A DNA stretch of 64,000 bases, taken from positions 5,630 to 69,629 of the forward strand of contig NZ_DAOMOQ010000014.1 in NCBI RefSeq assembly GCF_035444425.1. Direction: 5' to 3'. Position 1 is the first letter of the stretch, and each line of letters starts with the position of its first letter. Position numbers and translations under genes: made by a program. Origin of the DNA: Ottowia sp. Its GTDB lineage: Bacteria > Pseudomonadota > Gammaproteobacteria > Burkholderiales > Burkholderiaceae_C. Below the pieces are notes generated by a model. That model searched no databases. It saw nothing but the letters and a program-made list of their open reading frames with translations, and was not told where the DNA came from. This document shows positions 27,675-56,592 of the stretch, in pieces.

Positions 27675-28640
27675 ATGACCGAAAAGAAGTTCGCTTCCCA
27701 GGCCGACCTGGAAGAAAAGCAGATCAGCTGGGACAAGCTGTCTGACAACGCCTACGCCTACACCGCCGAGGGCGACCCGAACACCGGCGTCATCATCGGC
27801 GACGACGGCTGCATGATCATCGACGCCACCGCCACCCCGGTGGCGGCGCAGGGCGTGATCAGGAAGATTCGCGAGATCACCGACAAGCCGATCAAGTACG
27901 TGGTGCTGACGCACTACCACGCGGTGCGTGTGCTCGGCGCCTCGGGCTATCGTGACGAAGGCCTGCAGCAGGTCATCGCCAGCCAGGACACCTACGACCT
28001 GATCGTCGAGCGCGGCCAGCAGGACATGGATTCCGAGATCGGCCGCTTCCCGCGCCTGTTCCAGGCCGTCGAGAGCGTGCCCGGACTGACCTGGCCCACC
28101 CTCACCTTCACCGGCGACATGACGCTGTGGCTGGGCAAGCTGGAAGTCAAGATCAAGCAGATCGGCCGCGGCCACACCAAGGGCGACACCATCGTCTACC
28201 TGCCGCAGCAGAGCATCTGCTTCTCGGGCGATCTGGTCGAGGCGGATGCCGCCTGCTACACCGGGGACGCCTACCTGGCCGACTGGCCGCAGACGCTCGA
28301 CAACCTCGCCGCGATGAAGTTCGACAAGCTGGTGCCCGGCCGCGGCCCGGCTTTGATGACGCCAGAGGCGGTGAACCTGGGCCTGGCCTACACACGCGAC
28401 TTCGTGTCGACGCTGTACCAGAGTGCGCGGGAAGCCGTGGCGCAGGGCATGGATCTGAACGCCTGCATGAAACACACGCGCAAGGCCATGGACCCGAAGT
28501 TCGGCCATGTTTTCATCTACGAGCACTGCCTGCCGTTCGACGTGACCCGCGCCCACGACGAGGCCAGCGGCATCCGCGATCCGCGCATCTGGACCGCCGA
28601 GCGCGATCAGGAGATGTGGCATGAACTGCAGAAGGCGTAA
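27675..28640 (+). CDS. Metallo-beta-lactamase-fold protein with non-canonical metal motif
   Basis: PNTGVIIG, THYHAVR (in place of HxHxDH), GRGHTKGD, FSGDLV and LVPGRG. Confidence 0.88.
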   Translation: MTEKKFASQADLEEKQISWDKLSDNAYAYTAEGDPNTGVIIGDDGCMIIDATATPVAAQGVIRKIREITDKPIKYVVLTHYHAVRVLGASGYRDEGLQQVIASQDTYDLIVERGQQDMDSEIGRFPRLFQAVESVPGLTWPTLTFTGDMTLWLGKLEVKIKQIGRGHTKGDTIVYLPQQSICFSGDLVEADAACYTGDAYLADWPQTLDNLAAMKFDKLVPGRGPALMTPEAVNLGLAYTRDFVSTLYQSAREAVAQGMDLNACMKHTRKAMDPKFGHVFIYEHCLPFDVTRAHDEASGIRDPRIWTAERDQEMWHELQKA

Positions 28641-28783
28641 GCGCCCAGCCACCTGACGGCGCTTTCCCCTCGCTGTTGAAGCGGGAGCATGGCCGTGCCT
28701 GATACCGCTCAGCGCACGGCATTTGCGGATCCGGCCCGCTCCGCGGCCGATTGAATCAGGCGGAGCACAAGAGGAGACAAACG

Positions 28784-52459: not shown

Positions 52460-53404
52460 ATGGGTGTGATGCGCATCGGGCACGCGAGCCTGAAAGTGAT
52501 GGACATGGACGCCGCGGTCAAGCACTACGAAAACGTGCTCGGCCTCAAGACCACCATGAAAGACAAGGCCGGCAATGTCTACCTCAAGTGCTGGGACGAG
52601 TGGGACAAGTACTCACTGATCCTGACACCGTCCGACCAGGCCGGCCTGAACCACGTGGCCTACAAGGTCGAGAAGGACAGCGACCTCGACGAGTTGCAGA
52701 AGAAGGTGGAAGCCTGGGGCGTGAAGACCACCGTGCTGCCAGAAGGCACCCTGCCGTCCACCGGCCGCATGCTGCAGTTCAACCTGCCCAGCGGCCACGA
52801 GATGCGCCTGTACGCCATGAAGGAGTACGTGGGCACCGAGGTCGGCACCACCAACCCCGACCCGTGGCCGGACGGACTCAAAGGCTCGGGCGTGCACTGG
52901 CTGGACCACCTGCTGCTGATGTGCGAGATGAACCCCGAAGCCGGCATCAACACCGTGGCCGACAACACGCGCTTCATGACCGAGGCGCTGGACTTCTTCC
53001 TGACCGAGCAGGTGCTGGTCGGCCCCGAAGGCAACATGCAGGCCGCCACCTGGATGGCCCGCACCACCACGCCGCACGACATCGCCTTCGTCGGCGGCGC
53101 CAAGAGCGGCCTGCACCACATCGCCTTCTTCCTCGACTCGTGGCACGACGTGCTGAAGTCGGCCGACGTGATGGCCAAGAACAAGACCAAGATCGACGTC
53201 GCACCGACGCGCCACGGCATCACCCGCGGCGAGACGATCTATTTCTTCGACCCCAGTGGCAACCGCAACGAGACCTTTGCCGGCCTGGGCTACCTGGCCC
53301 AGCGCGACCGCCCCGTGACCACCTGGACCGAGGACCAGCTGTGGAGCGGCATCTTCTATCACACGGGTGAAGCGGTGCCGTCTTTCACCGAGGTGTACAC
53401 GTGA
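52460..53404 (+). CDS. xylE: Catechol 2,3-dioxygenase (314 aa; resembles the TdnC/CbzE/AphB subfamily)
   Basis: [31 protein letters not shown] and [11 protein letters not shown]. Confidence 0.96.
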
Positions 53405-53511
53405 TCACCCCCCTGCGCCGCTGACGCGGCTTCCCCCCTCTCTGACGCGCCTTCGGCGCTTGGAGGGGGGACGGCACCTGAGGCCCGGCGGAGCCGGTTC
53501 CTCGGTGCCCC
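53405..53511. repeat. Structured dispersed repeat, copy 1, directly after the C23O stop codon
   Basis: Three hairpins; aligns with 55457-55562. Confidence 0.85.
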
Positions 53512-53547
53512 TCGAACTGGCTCCCCCTCCTTCTCATTGTTCTTCTG

Positions 53548-53979
53548 ATGACAACCGCTCTTTCTGTTCCTTCTGCCGTCATCACCGCATCGGCGGCCTC
53601 TCTGGCCTGTCAGGCGGCGCTGGCGCATGCAGAGGCATTGGGCATTCGCATCAACGTGGCCGTGACCGATGCCTCGGGCACGCTCGCCGCCTTCTTGCGC
53701 ATGCCCAATGCCTTTCTGCATTCGATCGACATCGCGATCGACAAGGCCTACACCGCGGCCAGCTTCGGCTTCCCCACCTCGCAGTGGGGCGGCGTGATCG
53801 GCGACGACGAGCTGCTGCGCATCGGCCTGAACCAGCGCCAGCGCCTGGTGCTGTTCGGTGGCGGCCTGCCCATCGTGGCCGACGGCCAGCGCATCGGCGG
53901 CATCGGTGTTTCCGGCGGCTCGGCCGAGCAGGACGAAGCCTGCGCCCGCGCCGGCCTGCAGGCCCTGGGGCTCGATTGA
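53548..53979 (+). CDS. GlcG/HbpS-family heme-binding protein
   Basis: VAVTDASG, AIDKAYTAASF and FGGGLPI..IGGIGVSGG...DEACA. Confidence 0.9.
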   Translation: MTTALSVPSAVITASAASLACQAALAHAEALGIRINVAVTDASGTLAAFLRMPNAFLHSIDIAIDKAYTAASFGFPTSQWGGVIGDDELLRIGLNQRQRLVLFGGGLPIVADGQRIGGIGVSGGSAEQDEACARAGLQALGLD

Positions 53980-54001
53980 TTTTTCATTTCATCCACACAC
54001 C

Positions 54002-55456
54002 ATGAAACAGTTCCTGAACTTCATCAACGGCGATTTCGTCGCCACCGCCAAGACCTTCGAAAACCGCAACCCGGCCACCAACGAGGTCGTAGGTCTGGTG
54101 CACGAGGCCGGTCAGGCCGAGGTCGACGCGGCCGTGGCCGCGGGCCGCGCCGCGCTCAAGGGCGAGTGGGGCACGATGAGCGTGGTCAAGCGCGCCGAAC
54201 TGCTGCACGCGGTGGCCGACGAGATCAACCGCCGCTTCGACGACTTCCTCGCCGCCGAACTGGCCGACACCGGCAAGCCGCGCTCGCTGGCTTCGCACAT
54301 CGACATCCCGCGCGGCGCCGCCAACTTCAAGATCTTTGCGGACATCGTCAAGAACGTGCCGACCGAGAGCTTCCAGATGACCACGCCCGACGGCGGCACT
54401 GCCATCAGCTACGGCCTGCGCACACCCCTGGGCGTGGTCGGCGTGATCTGCCCCTGGAACCTGCCGCTGCTGCTGATGACCTGGAAGGTCGGCCCGGCCC
54501 TGGCCTGCGGCAACACCGTCATCGTCAAACCCTCGGAGGAAACCCCCGCCACCGCGACCCTGCTGGGCGAGGTGATGAACGCGGTCGGCGTGCCCAAGGG
54601 CGTGTACCAGGTGCTGCACGGCTTCGGCCCCGGCTCGGCCGGCGAATTCATCACCAAGCACCCGGGTGTCAACGGCATCACCTTCACCGGCGAGACCCGC
54701 ACGGGTGAAGCCATCATGGCCGCCGCCGCCAAGGGTGTGCGCCCGGTGTCGTTCGAACTCGGCGGCAAGAACGCCGGCATCGTGTTCGCCGACGCCGACT
54801 TCGACAAGGCCATCGCCGGCATCACCCGCAGCGCCTTCGAGAACTGCGGCCAGGTCTGCCTGGGCACCGAACGCGTGTACGTGCAGCGCCCGATCTTCGA
54901 CAAGTTCGTCGCCGCGCTGAAAGAAAAGGCTGAGGGCCTGAAGATCGGCGGCCCCGACATGCCGGGCGTGGGCATCGGCCCGCTGATCTCGGCCGAACAC
55001 AAGCAGAAGGTCATGGGCTACTACGCCAAGGCCAGGGCCGAGGGGGCGACCGTCGTCACCGGCGGCGGTGAACCGGCCATGACGGGCGAGTACGCCAACG
55101 GCCACTTCGTGCAGCCCACTATCTGGACCGGCCTGCCCGAAAGCGCCAGCGTGATCCGCGAGGAGATCTTCGGCCCCTGCTGCCACATCGCCCCCTTCGA
55201 CACCGAAGAGGAAGCGATTGCGCTGGCCAACGCCACCGACTACGGCCTGGCGACCACCGTGTGGACGCAGGATCTGGGCAAGGCGCACCGCATGGCCTCG
55301 GCCATCGAGGTCGGCCTGTGCTGGATCAACAGCTGGTTCCTGCGTGACCTGCGCACCGCCTTCGGCGGCAGCAAGGCCTCGGGCATCGGCCGCGAAGGCG
55401 GCGTGCACTCGCTGGAGTTCTACACGGAACTCCGCAACGTGATGGTGAAGCTGTGA
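54002..55456 (+). CDS. dmpC: 2-hydroxymuconic semialdehyde dehydrogenase
   Basis: PWNLPLLL, FTGET, FELGGKN, GQVCLG and EEIFGP. Confidence 0.95.
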   Translation: MKQFLNFINGDFVATAKTFENRNPATNEVVGLVHEAGQAEVDAAVAAGRAALKGEWGTMSVVKRAELLHAVADEINRRFDDFLAAELADTGKPRSLASHIDIPRGAANFKIFADIVKNVPTESFQMTTPDGGTAISYGLRTPLGVVGVICPWNLPLLLMTWKVGPALACGNTVIVKPSEETPATATLLGEVMNAVGVPKGVYQVLHGFGPGSAGEFITKHPGVNGITFTGETRTGEAIMAAAAKGVRPVSFELGGKNAGIVFADADFDKAIAGITRSAFENCGQVCLGTERVYVQRPIFDKFVAALKEKAEGLKIGGPDMPGVGIGPLISAEHKQKVMGYYAKARAEGATVVTGGGEPAMTGEYANGHFVQPTIWTGLPESASVIREEIFGPCCHIAPFDTEEEAIALANATDYGLATTVWTQDLGKAHRMASAIEVGLCWINSWFLRDLRTAFGGSKASGIGREGGVHSLEFYTELRNVMVKL

Positions 55457-55562
55457 TCTCCCCCCTGCGCCGCTGCGCGGCTTCCCCCCTCCGTTGCGCG
55501 TCTTCGACGCTTCGAGGGGGACGCCGCCTGTGGCCCGGCATAGCCGGTTCCACGGCTGCCCT
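55457..55562. repeat. Structured dispersed repeat, copy 2, directly after the dmpC stop codon
   Basis: Aligns with 53405-53511, with compensatory substitutions. Confidence 0.85.
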
Positions 55563-55587
55563 GGACGAACGGCCTCGTGCGCCGACA

Positions 55588-55689
55588 GCGAGTGGGCCGG
55601 GGCGACTGGTGCAGTGAAGTAAAGGAGGAGGCGAGCGCGCAGCGACCGACGGGGGACATGAACGGAACCAGTCGTCCCGGCCCACTCGC
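55588..55689. repeat. 23-bp inverted repeat pair with a 56-nt spacer
   Basis: GCGAGTGGGCCGGGGCGACTGGT (55588-610) and ACCAGTCGTCCCGGCCCACTCGC (55667-689), with one G-T mismatch. Confidence 0.8.
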
Positions 55690-55725
55690 CGCCCCTTCAA
55701 AGCAAAGACCTCAAGGACAAGACAC

Positions 55726-56592
55726 ATGAATGCCCCACACAACCCTGAAATTGCGCTGAGCGTTCGCACAGGCAGCTTCAACACCAACGTGCACGACCTC
55801 GGCAGCTCCAAGCCGGGACAGCCTCCGGTGCTGTTCATCCACGGCTCCGGTCCGGGTGTAAGCGCCTGGGCCAACTGGCGCCTCGCCATGCCGGTCATCG
55901 CCAAGGATCGGCGAGTCATCGCGCCCGACATGGTGGGCTTCGGCTACACCGACCGCCCCGCCGGCATGACCTACAACATGGACACCTGGGTCCAGCAGGC
56001 GCTGGATGTCATGGACGCGATGGGCGTCGAGAAAGCCGACGTGGTCGGCAACAGCTTTGGCGGCGCGCTCTCGCTGGCGCTGGCGATCCGCGCGCCGCAG
56101 CGCGTGCGCCGCCTGGTGCTCATGGGCTCGGTCGGTGTGCCCTTCCCGATCACGCCGGGCCTGGACGCGGTCTGGGGCTACGAGCCCTCGCTGGCCACCA
56201 TGAAGCGCCTGCTGGACATCTTCGCCCACAGCCGCGCGCTGGTCACCGACGAGCTGGCCGAGCTGCGCTACCAGGCCAGCATCCGCCCCGGCTTCCAGGA
56301 ATCCTTCTCGGCCATGTTCCCGGCCCCGCGCCAGCGCTGGGTCGACGCCATGGCCAGCCCCGAATCGGCGATCCGCGCGCTGCCGCACGAGACGCTCATC
56401 GTCCACGGCCGCGAGGACCAGGTGATTCCGCTGCAGACCTCGCTCACGCTGAGCCAGTGGATTCCCAACAGCCAGCTGCACGTGTTCGGCCACTGCGGCC
56501 ACTGGACGCAGATCGAACACGCCGCGCGCTTCGCCCAGCTGGTGTCGAACTTCCTCGCCGAAGCCGACGCGCAGGGCGCCGCGTCCGCCTGA
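55726..56592 (+). CDS. dmpD: 2-hydroxymuconic semialdehyde hydrolase
   Basis: HGSGPGVSAWANW, GNSFGG, HGREDQVIP and CGHWTQIE. Confidence 0.95.
   Translation: MNAPHNPEIALSVRTGSFNTNVHDLGSSKPGQPPVLFIHGSGPGVSAWANWRLAMPVIAKDRRVIAPDMVGFGYTDRPAGMTYNMDTWVQQALDVMDAMGVEKADVVGNSFGGALSLALAIRAPQRVRRLVLMGSVGVPFPITPGLDAVWGYEPSLATMKRLLDIFAHSRALVTDELAELRYQASIRPGFQESFSAMFPAPRQRWVDAMASPESAIRALPHETLIVHGREDQVIPLQTSLTLSQWIPNSQLHVFGHCGHWTQIEHAARFAQLVSNFLAEADAQGAASA

What the first reader, a model, noticed from the sequence alone, without database searches (positions are those of the whole stretch)
53402..55562. Stop-codon-anchored repeat of about 105 bp with compensatory base changes, twice in the meta operon
Seen: copies at 53405-53511 and 55457-55562 both follow GTGATC, in which TGA is the stop of the upstream gene. 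Each has a GCCGC-loop-GCGGC hairpin, a CCCCCTC...GAGGGGG stem and a terminal CCGGC-NNN-GCCGG stem. Differences between copies are paired: GCGC-CTTCG-GCGC versus GCGT-CTTCG-ACGC, GAGG/CCTC versus GTGG/CCAC, and ACC/GGT versus GCC/GGC. Three covarying pairs indicate selection on secondary structure. Inference: a structured mobile repeat or RNA element with target preference for stop codons, possibly tuning segmental mRNA stability after xylE and dmpC.
Basis: partly seen in the sequence, partly recalled or inferred. Interest (0 to 1): 0.62.

Follow-up and report, generated by a model that had tools for sequence, protein, structure and literature searches.

The report
Stop-codon-abutting hairpin repeat family, Comamonadaceae
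The two look-alike stretches after xylE and dmpC are copies of an apparently undescribed, roughly 120-base, three-hairpin mobile repeat that is scattered through Comamonadaceae genomes and almost always sits, in the gene's own direction, within a few bases of a stop codon.

Summary
Copies A (53405-53540) and B (55457-55592) each start right after the TGA stop of xylE and dmpC, share three hairpins, and differ by at least three compensatory pairs.

They belong to a large family: at least 80 copies in this 3.3-Mb Ottowia genome, present in 89 of 150 sampled genera of the same GTDB family, and in 0 of 24 other Burkholderiales families. Rfam and the held literature have nothing on it.

Covariation across 128 copies is strong but strictly Watson-Crick, so it does not separate RNA from DNA hairpins.

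Stop anchoring is real: 63 of 80 copies start within 12 nt of a same-strand gene stop (null 2%), with TGA, TAA and TAG all used. About 10% of anchored copies supply the stop themselves.

Orthologous and near-isogenic operons lack the inserts. Their native junctions are overlapping stop/start signals (TGATG, GTGA).

The whole phenol/meta cluster, inserts included, is 98% identical to conjugative plasmids.

No terminal repeats, target duplication or partner transposase were found, and RNA-seq was unavailable. This is a REP/BIME-like element with unusually strict stop-codon polarity. Its RNA-level role is inferred, not shown.

The parts
53402..53404 (+). TGA stop of the catechol 2,3-dioxygenase gene (xylE/dmpB-like, ORF 52460-53404). 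It is the native stop: the 85%-identical orthologue ends ...EVYT-TGA at the same place.
53405..53540 (+). Copy A of the repeat. The core 53405-53520 is well conserved; the tail 53521-53540 is degenerate.
   Evidence: R1 80.6 bits, E 1.7e-18. 97-99% identical on three plasmids, while the sequence after 53520 diverges.
53417..53430 (+). Copy A hairpin 1 (GCCGC-TGAC-GCGGC). It starts 12 nt after the stop.
   Evidence: family covariation
53432..53471 (+). Copy A hairpin 2 (CCCCCCTC...GAGGGGGG, with an inner GCGCC-TTC-GGCGC hairpin).
53473..53509 (+). Copy A hairpin 3 (GGCACC-GAGG-CCGGC / GCCGG-CCTC-GGTGCC).
53546..53550 (+). TGATG at the right junction of the copy A insert. ATG 53548 starts the HbpS-like gene. 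Orthologues without the insert have the xylE stop and this start overlapping as TGATG.
55454..55456 (+). TGA stop of the 2-hydroxymuconic semialdehyde dehydrogenase gene (dmpC-like, 54002-55456). It is the native stop (...MVKL-TGA in orthologues).
55457..55592 (+). Copy B of the repeat. Hairpins at 55469-55481, 55485-55520 and 55523-55559; degenerate tail to 55592.
   Evidence: R1 66.9 bits, E 5e-15; folds
55457..55726 (+). The whole 270-nt insert relative to the near-isogenic empty site on the Achromobacter pestifer plasmid (CTGTGA|ACGCCCC). It consists of copy B plus about 135 nt of extra sequence, and TGA flanks it on both sides.
55588..55689 (+). Long perfect-stem hairpin (23 bp, -61.9 kcal/mol, z -6.8) with AAGGAGGAGG in its loop. 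It lies in the extra part of the insert and is unique in the genome.
55726..55729 (+). ATGA: the new ATG start of the hydrolase gene (dmpD-like). It replaces the GTG that overlaps the dmpC stop in the empty site.
28638..28754 (+). A third, degenerate copy of the same family. It starts at the TAA stop of a 339-codon open frame.
   Evidence: R1 35.3 bits, E 5.6e-7

Best explanation
A and B are two copies, forming a divergent two-member subtype, of a non-autonomous mobile repeat family specific to Comamonadaceae. An element is about 110-136 nt long. Its layout is: an invariant C-run, hairpin 1, a second C-run pairing with a G-run (hairpin 2, with a variable tip), a long hairpin 3, and a tail ending GGCC-N-T-Y-N-G-A. 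Copies lie in the sense orientation of the upstream gene, and the C-run starts 0-11 nt (mostly 0-4) after the stop codon. Some copies reach into the last codons and supply the stop themselves. Most copies sit between co-directional genes and have no T-run, so they must be transcribed as part of the mRNA. In this operon the two inserts split junctions that were natively overlapping stop/start signals (TGATG, GTGA). Because each insert ends in ...TGA directly 3' of a TGA, the start context of the downstream gene was regenerated. Shown here: the family, the conserved fold, the polarity and stop anchoring, gain and loss, the insertion sites, and carriage on conjugative plasmids. Inferred: once in the mRNA, the stable hairpins starting about 12 nt after the stop act like stop-proximal REP elements of E. 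coli. They would hinder the terminating ribosome and/or block 3'-5' exonucleases, and they would abolish translational coupling, changing the relative output of xylE, orf, dmpC and dmpD. The mobilising enzyme is unknown. The lack of terminal inverted repeats and target duplications argues against a DDE transposase.
For: Family size: 87 hits in this genome. Distribution: 19 of 23 Ottowia genomes, 89 of 150 genera of the family, named Comamonadaceae genera, and 0 of 24 other families. Fold: 93% of cells paired, 15 of 22 pairs compensatory, covariation score 0.336 against at most 0.077 for slid controls. Orthologous copies in sister species differ by compensatory changes. Anchoring: 63 of 80 copies within 12 nt and 48 of 80 within 4 nt of a same-strand stop, against nulls of 2% and 0.7%. 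In other genera the figure is 87 of 118. The left gap is about 0-4 nt, while right spacers have a median of about 45 nt of mostly unique sequence. No copy is anchored only in the antisense sense. The element supplies the stop and last codons at trxB in three species. Empty sites were found. Plasmid carriage is shown. There is no T-run, and 49 of 63 anchored copies are followed by a co-directional gene. The precedent for stop-proximal REP action is PMC12306157, citing Liang et al. 2015.
Against: No transcript data could be obtained, so every RNA-level effect is inference. Covariation is strictly Watson-Crick with almost no G-U, which a DNA-level hairpin explains at least as well. No partner transposase was found: the genome's RAYT has its own unrelated REPs, and the other Y1-type gene does not co-occur with the repeat. 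The stop-to-element gap varies from 0 to 16 nt and all three stop codons are used, so no simple sequence target explains the anchoring. A and B now sit on plasmids in hosts outside the family, where they may be inert.
Confidence: 0.72

Rival explanations
1. Purely selfish DNA-level element. The hairpins are ssDNA or cruciform recognition structures for an unidentified (for example HUH-type) enzyme that inserts strand-specifically next to stop codons. The element has no role in the mRNA and persists because this site is harmless.
For: Covariation is strictly Watson-Crick with few G-U pairs. There are no terminal inverted repeats or target duplications. Tandem copies sit directly after another copy's right end. 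Closely related genomes show gain and loss. The insertion at overlapping stop/start junctions is seamless.
Against: No enzyme candidate was found. Orientation follows the gene, not local GC skew, although that proxy is weak. Copies are kept at orthologous sites across species with the fold maintained by compensatory change and across genera. This suggests constraint beyond mere harmlessness.
Confidence: 0.3
2. The stop-codon anchoring is produced by selection alone. Insertion is random, and only copies squeezed between a stop and the downstream promoter, RBS or terminator survive.
For: Native spacers at several sites are tiny or overlapping, so the tolerated zone is narrow.
Against: Right-hand spacers are typically 20-180 nt of unique native sequence, while the left gap is 0-4 nt. 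Orientation is almost always sense, which position-only selection does not explain. The null expectation is 0.7-2% against 60-79% observed.
Confidence: 0.2
3. The elements are transcription terminators or attenuators placed after genes.
For: They are GC-rich hairpins located after stop codons.
Against: No T-run follows any hairpin. Most copies, A and B included, lie inside operons before co-directional genes. Some copies are followed by a separate, genuine intrinsic terminator.
Confidence: 0.05
4. A and B are an operon-specific regulatory RNA, or a local duplication unrelated to any genome-wide family.
For: A and B are each other's closest relatives and are the only copies of their subtype in the genome.
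Against: The covariance model built from the family finds both at E 1e-15 to 1e-18. Related operons lack one or both. Rfam has no match.
Confidence: 0.02

Closest known systems
REP / BIME elements of Enterobacteria and Pseudomonas, in particular the stop-proximal REPs shown to stall ribosomes (Liang, Rudd and Deutscher 2015, as summarised in PMC12306157)
   Same: High-copy, GC-rich, hairpin-forming extragenic repeats that are transcribed at the 3' ends of genes and inside operons. A large share lie within 15 nt of a stop codon. In A and B, hairpin 1 starts 12 nt after the stop. The architecture is modular, or mosaic.
   Different: The unit is much longer, with three hairpins plus two C-runs. 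There is no GTAG-type head. It is not the REP that flanks this genome's RAYT. The orientation and stop abutment are far stricter: 79% within 12 nt, essentially all in sense, against 11-52% of E. coli REPs within 15 nt. It sometimes encodes the last codons and the stop.
IS200/IS605-derived palindrome-associated elements (PATEs) and RAYT-mobilised REPINs
   Same: No terminal inverted repeats and no target duplication. Hairpins lie near both ends. A conserved mismatch (T-C) occurs in hairpin 1 of one subtype. Insertion is directly 3' of a short sequence, and tandem insertion occurs after another copy's end.
   Different: There is no fixed tetra- or pentanucleotide target. No autonomous copy or linked Y1 gene was found. 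Orientation tracks genes rather than GC skew.
MIRUs of Mycobacterium, ERIC / Correia-type MITEs, and Rickettsia palindromic elements
   Same: Intercistronic repeats inside operons whose ends can overlap the stop and start codons of neighbouring genes (MIRU; from my own knowledge). Structured repeats that affect mRNA processing (ERIC, Correia). Occasional translation of part of the repeat (RPE).
   Different: There are no small ORFs spanning the unit, no TA target or terminal inverted repeats, and only 1-5 codons are ever translated.

Membership tests
REP/REPIN-RAYT system | Short (about 20-40 nt) imperfect palindrome with a conserved GTAG/GTRG head | tested here: not met
   The element is 110-136 nt, starts with a C-run and has no GTRG head.
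REP/REPIN-RAYT system | A cognate RAYT gene flanked by the same repeats | tested here: not met
   The genome's RAYT (NF047646, 146 bits) is flanked by GTRGGAGCGGCGGMAGCCGCGAAC repeats, not by this element. The second Y1 gene does not co-occur with the repeat.
REP/REPIN-RAYT system | High-copy extragenic palindromic repeat at the 3' ends of genes | tested here: met
Stop-proximal translational REP (functional class) | A stable hairpin beginning within 15 nt of the stop codon | tested here: met
   Hairpin 1 starts 12 nt after the stop in A and B. In most copies the gap to the C-run is 0-4 nt.
Stop-proximal translational REP (functional class) | Ribosome stalling, tmRNA tagging or reduced output of the upstream gene | not testable with these tools
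   This needs experiments.
DDE-transposase-derived MITE | Terminal inverted repeats and a target-site duplication | tested here: not met
   The ends are not inverted repeats. The right-end triplet is independent of the left flank.
IS200/IS605-type PATE | Insertion 3' of one fixed 4-5 nt target, with a related autonomous element carrying the same ends | tested here: not met
   The gap is variable, three stop codons are used, and no conserved upstream bases exist. No autonomous partner was found.
Integron attC site | R''/R' core sites (GTTRRRY), cassette arrays and a nearby integrase | tested here: not met
   No such cores appear in the consensus. Copies are dispersed singly on most contigs.
Any Rfam family | A match to a curated covariance model | tested here: not met
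   Nothing near a gathering score for A, B or typical copies.

The most novel reading that the evidence does not exclude
The element is actively targeted to the point where translation ends, not to a DNA word. This could work by seamless strand-specific insertion immediately 3' of the stop, or by using DNA exposed where transcription loses its ribosome. Its built-in features would let it invade even overlapping stop/start junctions without killing either gene. Those features are a terminal ...TGA that regenerates overlapped start codons, and TGA triplets in two frames at its 5' end that close any ORF it truncates. That would make it a bacterial mobile element whose target is defined by the stop codon.
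Probability: 0.18. Interest if true: 0.85.

Novelty: new variant of a known kind. Interest (0 to 1): 0.58.

Why it matters
REP-like repeats are among the most abundant and least understood features of bacterial genomes. How they reach gene ends, and what they do there, is still debated. This family offers an unusually clean case. It has a large unit that is easy to recognise and near-absolute polarity and stop abutment. It has documented filled and empty sites in near-identical plasmid-borne operons. It also occurs in culturable, genetically tractable hosts (Comamonas testosteroni pI2, Delftia, Acidovorax). That makes both its targeting and its effect on translation termination, operon coupling and mRNA decay directly testable. 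Practically, it is an unannotated feature inside widely transferred phenol/aniline degradation operons, and it may alter their enzyme stoichiometry.

Tried and rejected
- Rfam: scans of A, B and typical copies found nothing.
- RAYT as mobiliser: rejected, because it has its own REPs.
- L157-type Y1 gene as mobiliser: no co-occurrence with the repeat.
- Target-site duplication of the stop: A and B have TGA on both sides, but family-wide the right-end triplet (TGA/CGA/GGA) is independent of the left stop type.
- Terminal inverted repeats or a fixed upstream target: none.
- In-frame placement of the element's internal TGA as a back-up stop: p = 0.001 in this genome, but not replicated in other genomes once self-stop cases are removed.
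- Short-spacer artefact as the cause of anchoring: rejected by the left/right asymmetry.
- Replication-strand bias: none, although the GC-skew proxy is weak here.
- Alternative pairing of the first C-run with the G-run: run lengths co-vary ((5,5,5) in 60 copies, (6,6,6) in 30), but subfamily descent can explain this.
- Relation to the in-frame hrpA repeat of this window: R1 gives only 10.8 bits.
- Technical failures: a fuzzy-regex genome scan timed out and a strict regex was too narrow.
- Literature: searches found no description of this family. One search was malformed.
Full report
**Observation**

Both stretches are present as described.
- The TGA at 53402-53404 ends a 314-aa catechol 2,3-dioxygenase ORF. 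The TGA at 55454-55456 ends a 484-aa 2-hydroxymuconic-semialdehyde dehydrogenase ORF.
- The repeat begins at the next base in both cases.
- The copies are 85-87% identical over about 115 nt.
- Each folds into three consecutive hairpins.

The operon order is: phenol hydroxylase genes, LysR (opposite strand), ferredoxin, C23O, [A], HbpS-like/heme-binding protein, dehydrogenase, [B], hydrolase, hydratase.

**A family, not a pair**

- BLAST of A and B against the whole 3.33-Mb, 81-contig genome (GC 68.6%) found about 35 further places sharing the first 35-40 nt.
- Aligning these showed a modular unit of about 110-136 nt. Its parts are:
  - two weakly conserved bases, then an invariant C5-6 run and TGAG;
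  - hairpin 1, for example GCCGC-TGAC-GCGGC;
  - TT plus a second C-run that pairs with a G-run (hairpin 2, whose tip ranges from nothing to a 30-nt inner hairpin);
  - a long hairpin 3;
  - a tail CGCTGG-NN-TGGCCTGCTCCGCGGCC-N-T-Y-N-G-A.
- A covariance model built from 35 copies (R1) finds 87 copies in this genome.
- In the window it finds A (80.6 bits), B (66.9 bits) and a degenerate third copy at 28638-28754 (35.3 bits).
- A and B are an atypical subtype: TGCG instead of TGAG, an extended hairpin 2, and a degenerate tail.

**Distribution**

- The genome is an Ottowia. Handles G001, G015 and G007 match the record lengths of Ottowia sp. VDI28, O. caeni and O. beijingensis.
- It finds copies in 89 of 150 genera sampled one-per-genus from the same GTDB family.
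- It finds none in 16 other families of the order. The set was extended to 24 families.
- An exact-pattern scan of named species genomes found module 1 in Ottowia, Acidovorax, Paracidovorax, Comamonas, Delftia, Curvibacter, Hylemonella, Hydrogenophaga and Oryzisolibacter.
- Rfam has no match for A, B or typical copies.
- Full-text searches found no description of the family.

**Structure**

- RNAalifold on 35 copies predicts the three hairpins, with compensatory changes in 10 of 22 pairs.
- On 128 copies from other genomes (A3):
  - 93.2% of cells pair;
  - 15 of 22 pairs show double changes;
  - 388 cells carry double changes, against 126 in shuffles;
  - the covariation score is 0.336, against 0.03-0.08 when partners are slid by 1-3 columns.
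- The alignment was fitted to the model, which favours it. The slid controls and the orthologous comparisons below are independent of that.
- The covariation is strictly Watson-Crick: 2283 Watson-Crick cells, 15 G-U, 46 A-C and 136 other mismatches.
- An RNA under selection on the sense strand would be expected to show more G-U than A-C. The structure is therefore conserved, but the data do not say whether it matters as RNA or as DNA.

**Stop-codon anchoring**

I trained a codon log-likelihood on long ORFs. For each copy I located the best-scoring coding frame on the element's own strand upstream.
- 63 of 80 copies have that frame's stop within 12 nt of the element start, and 48 of 80 within 4 nt.
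- Random placement in intergenic DNA with random orientation gives 2% and 0.7%.
- The stops are TGA 45, TAA 12 and TAG 6, against genomic usage of 79%, 9% and 12%. The anchor is therefore the stop codon in general, not the word TGA.
- The same holds in other genera: 87 of 118 within 12 nt, including Acidovorax, Comamonas, Delftia, Curvibacter and Hylemonella.
- The gap from the stop to the C-run is 0-4 nt in 29 of 47 measured copies and 6-11 nt in 14.

This is not a by-product of short spacers.
- 49 anchored copies are followed by a co-directional gene at a median of about 45 nt, and 10 by a convergent gene.
- These right-hand spacers are mostly unique sequence.
- No copy is anchored to a stop only by its right (antisense) end. 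The two apparent cases are second members of tandem pairs whose first, truncated member is sense-anchored.

Conservation begins 2 nt before the C-run. No fixed upstream bases, terminal inverted repeats or target duplication are visible.

**The element can supply the stop**

- In about 10% of anchored copies the ORF runs into the element and ends at its conserved TGA.
- At trxB the element is present in the three closest relatives (G000, G047, G016). Their proteins end ...ESTP*, ...EGTPLSA* (using the second TGA, in the hairpin 1 loop) and ...EGAP*.
- Another 26 Ottowia genomes lack the element. Their proteins end ...EQQGG*, ...ENAA* and so on, followed directly by the rpmB promoter and leader.
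- One genome (G046) keeps only ...EATP* (ACCCCCTGA) followed by unrelated DNA.

**Gain, loss and conservation**

A concatenated query of 20 gene ends against the two nearest relatives gave 12 comparable sites.
- At 8 sites the element is at the same stop-proximal position in two or three genomes. This holds even where the stop differs (TGA vs TAA) or hairpin 1 has changed by compensatory substitutions or to another subtype.
- At 4 sites one genome lacks it. That genome instead has an overlapping TGATG junction, an intrinsic terminator or another hairpin.

**The sites of A and B**

- None of 18 orthologous or paralogous meta-operons in relatives contains a copy. This includes a second operon in this genome.
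- The 85%-identical C23O orthologue ends ...EVYT-TGA and overlaps the next start as TGATG.
- Window positions 42-64 kb are 98% identical to an IncP conjugative plasmid of Achromobacter pestifer, 98.7% to a Burkholderia anthina plasmid, and 93% to Comamonas testosteroni pI2.
- Copy A is present, 93-99% identical, in all of these.
- Copy B is present and 100% identical in the B. anthina plasmid. It is absent from three others:
  - the A. pestifer plasmid, where dmpC and dmpD overlap as GTGA;
  - pI2, which has a different-lineage spacer;
  - an Ideonella plasmid, which has an ATGA overlap.
- Empty site: CTGTGA|ACGCCCC. Filled site: CTGTGA|TCTCCCC...ACACATGA|ATGCCCC.
- The insert is 270 nt (55457-55726). 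It comprises copy B plus about 135 nt that includes a 23-bp-stem hairpin at 55588-55689.
- For A, the filled site reads ACGTGA|TCACCCC...TTCTGA|TG.
- In both cases an insert ending in ...TGA sits directly 3' of a TGA. The upstream stop is kept and the overlapped start is regenerated (ATG replacing GTG for dmpD; TGATG for the HbpS-like gene).
- Family-wide, the right end is TGA, CGA or GGA regardless of the left stop. It is therefore the element's own end rather than a duplication.

**Mobilising enzyme**

- The genome has two PF01797 genes.
- One is a classic RAYT flanked by its own, unrelated REPs (GTRGGAGCGGCGGMAGCCGCGAAC).
- The other is a conserved single-copy gene. It is present in repeat-free genomes and in other families, and absent from some repeat-rich genomes.
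- Element orientation shows no relation to local GC skew (32 of 72). Genes themselves show no bias by this proxy, so the test is weak.

**What could not be done**

There is no transcript evidence for or against mRNA processing, 3' ends or stability steps.

**Interpretation**

- What the thing is has good support. It is a Comamonadaceae-specific, non-autonomous, structured interspersed repeat of the REP/BIME kind, with an unusually strict sense polarity and stop-codon abutment.
- How it gets there is open. The options are targeting or selection, and the enzyme is unknown.
- What it does is inferred from position and from the E. coli precedent, in which REPs within 15 nt of a stop stall ribosomes (PMC12306157). 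In A and B, hairpin 1 starts 12 nt after the stop, and both inserts broke natively coupled junctions.
- An effect on termination-proximal ribosomes, translational coupling and 3'-5' decay is therefore the most likely mode of action, if there is any.

**Earlier notes of this scan**

- Note e1-5248789 describes another Comamonadaceae hairpin repeat translated inside hrpA in this window. R1 scores it at only 10.8 bits, so I treat it as a separate family.
- Notes e1-3348504 and e1-1494879 describe analogous gene-end-abutting hairpin repeats in other genomes. I did not test them.

Noticed in passing
window 28638-28754 (+): A third, degenerate copy of the same repeat family (R1 35.3 bits). It starts at the TAA stop of a long ORF.
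   Followed up: partly
window 55588-55689 (+): A 23-bp perfect-stem hairpin (-61.9 kcal/mol, z -6.8) with AAGGAGGAGG in its loop. It is part of the 270-nt insert after dmpC, is unique in this genome, and may be a second, different inserted element.
   Followed up: partly
window 42000-64000: The whole phenol hydroxylase and meta-cleavage cluster is 98% identical to an IncP conjugative plasmid of Achromobacter pestifer (NZ_CP053984), and 98.7% and 93% identical to plasmids of Burkholderia anthina and Comamonas testosteroni (pI2). pI2 is mosaic: it has the same xylE-A-orf segment but a different dmpC-dmpD segment.
   Followed up: partly
window 20000-42000: Mobile-island content: matches to IS21-family istAB, a Tn3-family transposase, a site-specific integrase and a heavy-metal P-type ATPase with CopK, all on Comamonadaceae plasmids.
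   Followed up: no
G000:C8:82880-83640 (locus L158, 1260-2010): A classic RAYT gene (NF047646, 146 bits) flanked on both sides by inverted classic REPs of consensus GTRGGAGCGGCGGMAGCCGCGAAC. This is a second, unrelated repeat system in the genome.
   Followed up: partly
own genome, downstream of about 15 copies (for example C21:22981-23000, C4:6825-6845, C19:22348-22367): An extra small hairpin NNNN-CTTGCTGCGCAG-NNNN with covarying stems and a conserved loop. The same TGCTGCGC motif recurs as the hairpin 2 tip and, as TGCTCCGC, in the tail.
   Followed up: no
own genome, for example C60:10480-10560, C45:8540-8600, C37:27090-27140: Another repeat family, CTCCCTCTCCC-NNNN-GGGAGAGGG-YYGGGGTGAGGG (9-25 BLAST hits), often sits just downstream of copies of the stop-abutting repeat.
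   Followed up: no
G000:C10:76771-76955, C11:65282-65383; G047 orthologue of the C2:74143 site: A long variant in which about 90 nt (GCTCGCTGCCAGAGGCGGCGGCTCTTCGGC...) is nested in place of the second C-run.
   Followed up: no
G000:C2:119245-119336 (L009 1549-1640): A tRNA-Sec gene (Rfam 80.8 bits) lies 10 nt from the left end of one of the few copies that is not stop-anchored.
   Followed up: no
It scores only 10.8 bits (E 0.9) with R1 and is probably a distinct family.
   Followed up: partly
G046 (locus L201), trxB 3' end: trxB ends ...EATP* with ACCCCCTGA, which is the left 9 nt of the element, followed by unrelated DNA and no rpmB leader. This looks like a rearrangement breakpoint inside a former copy.
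   Followed up: no
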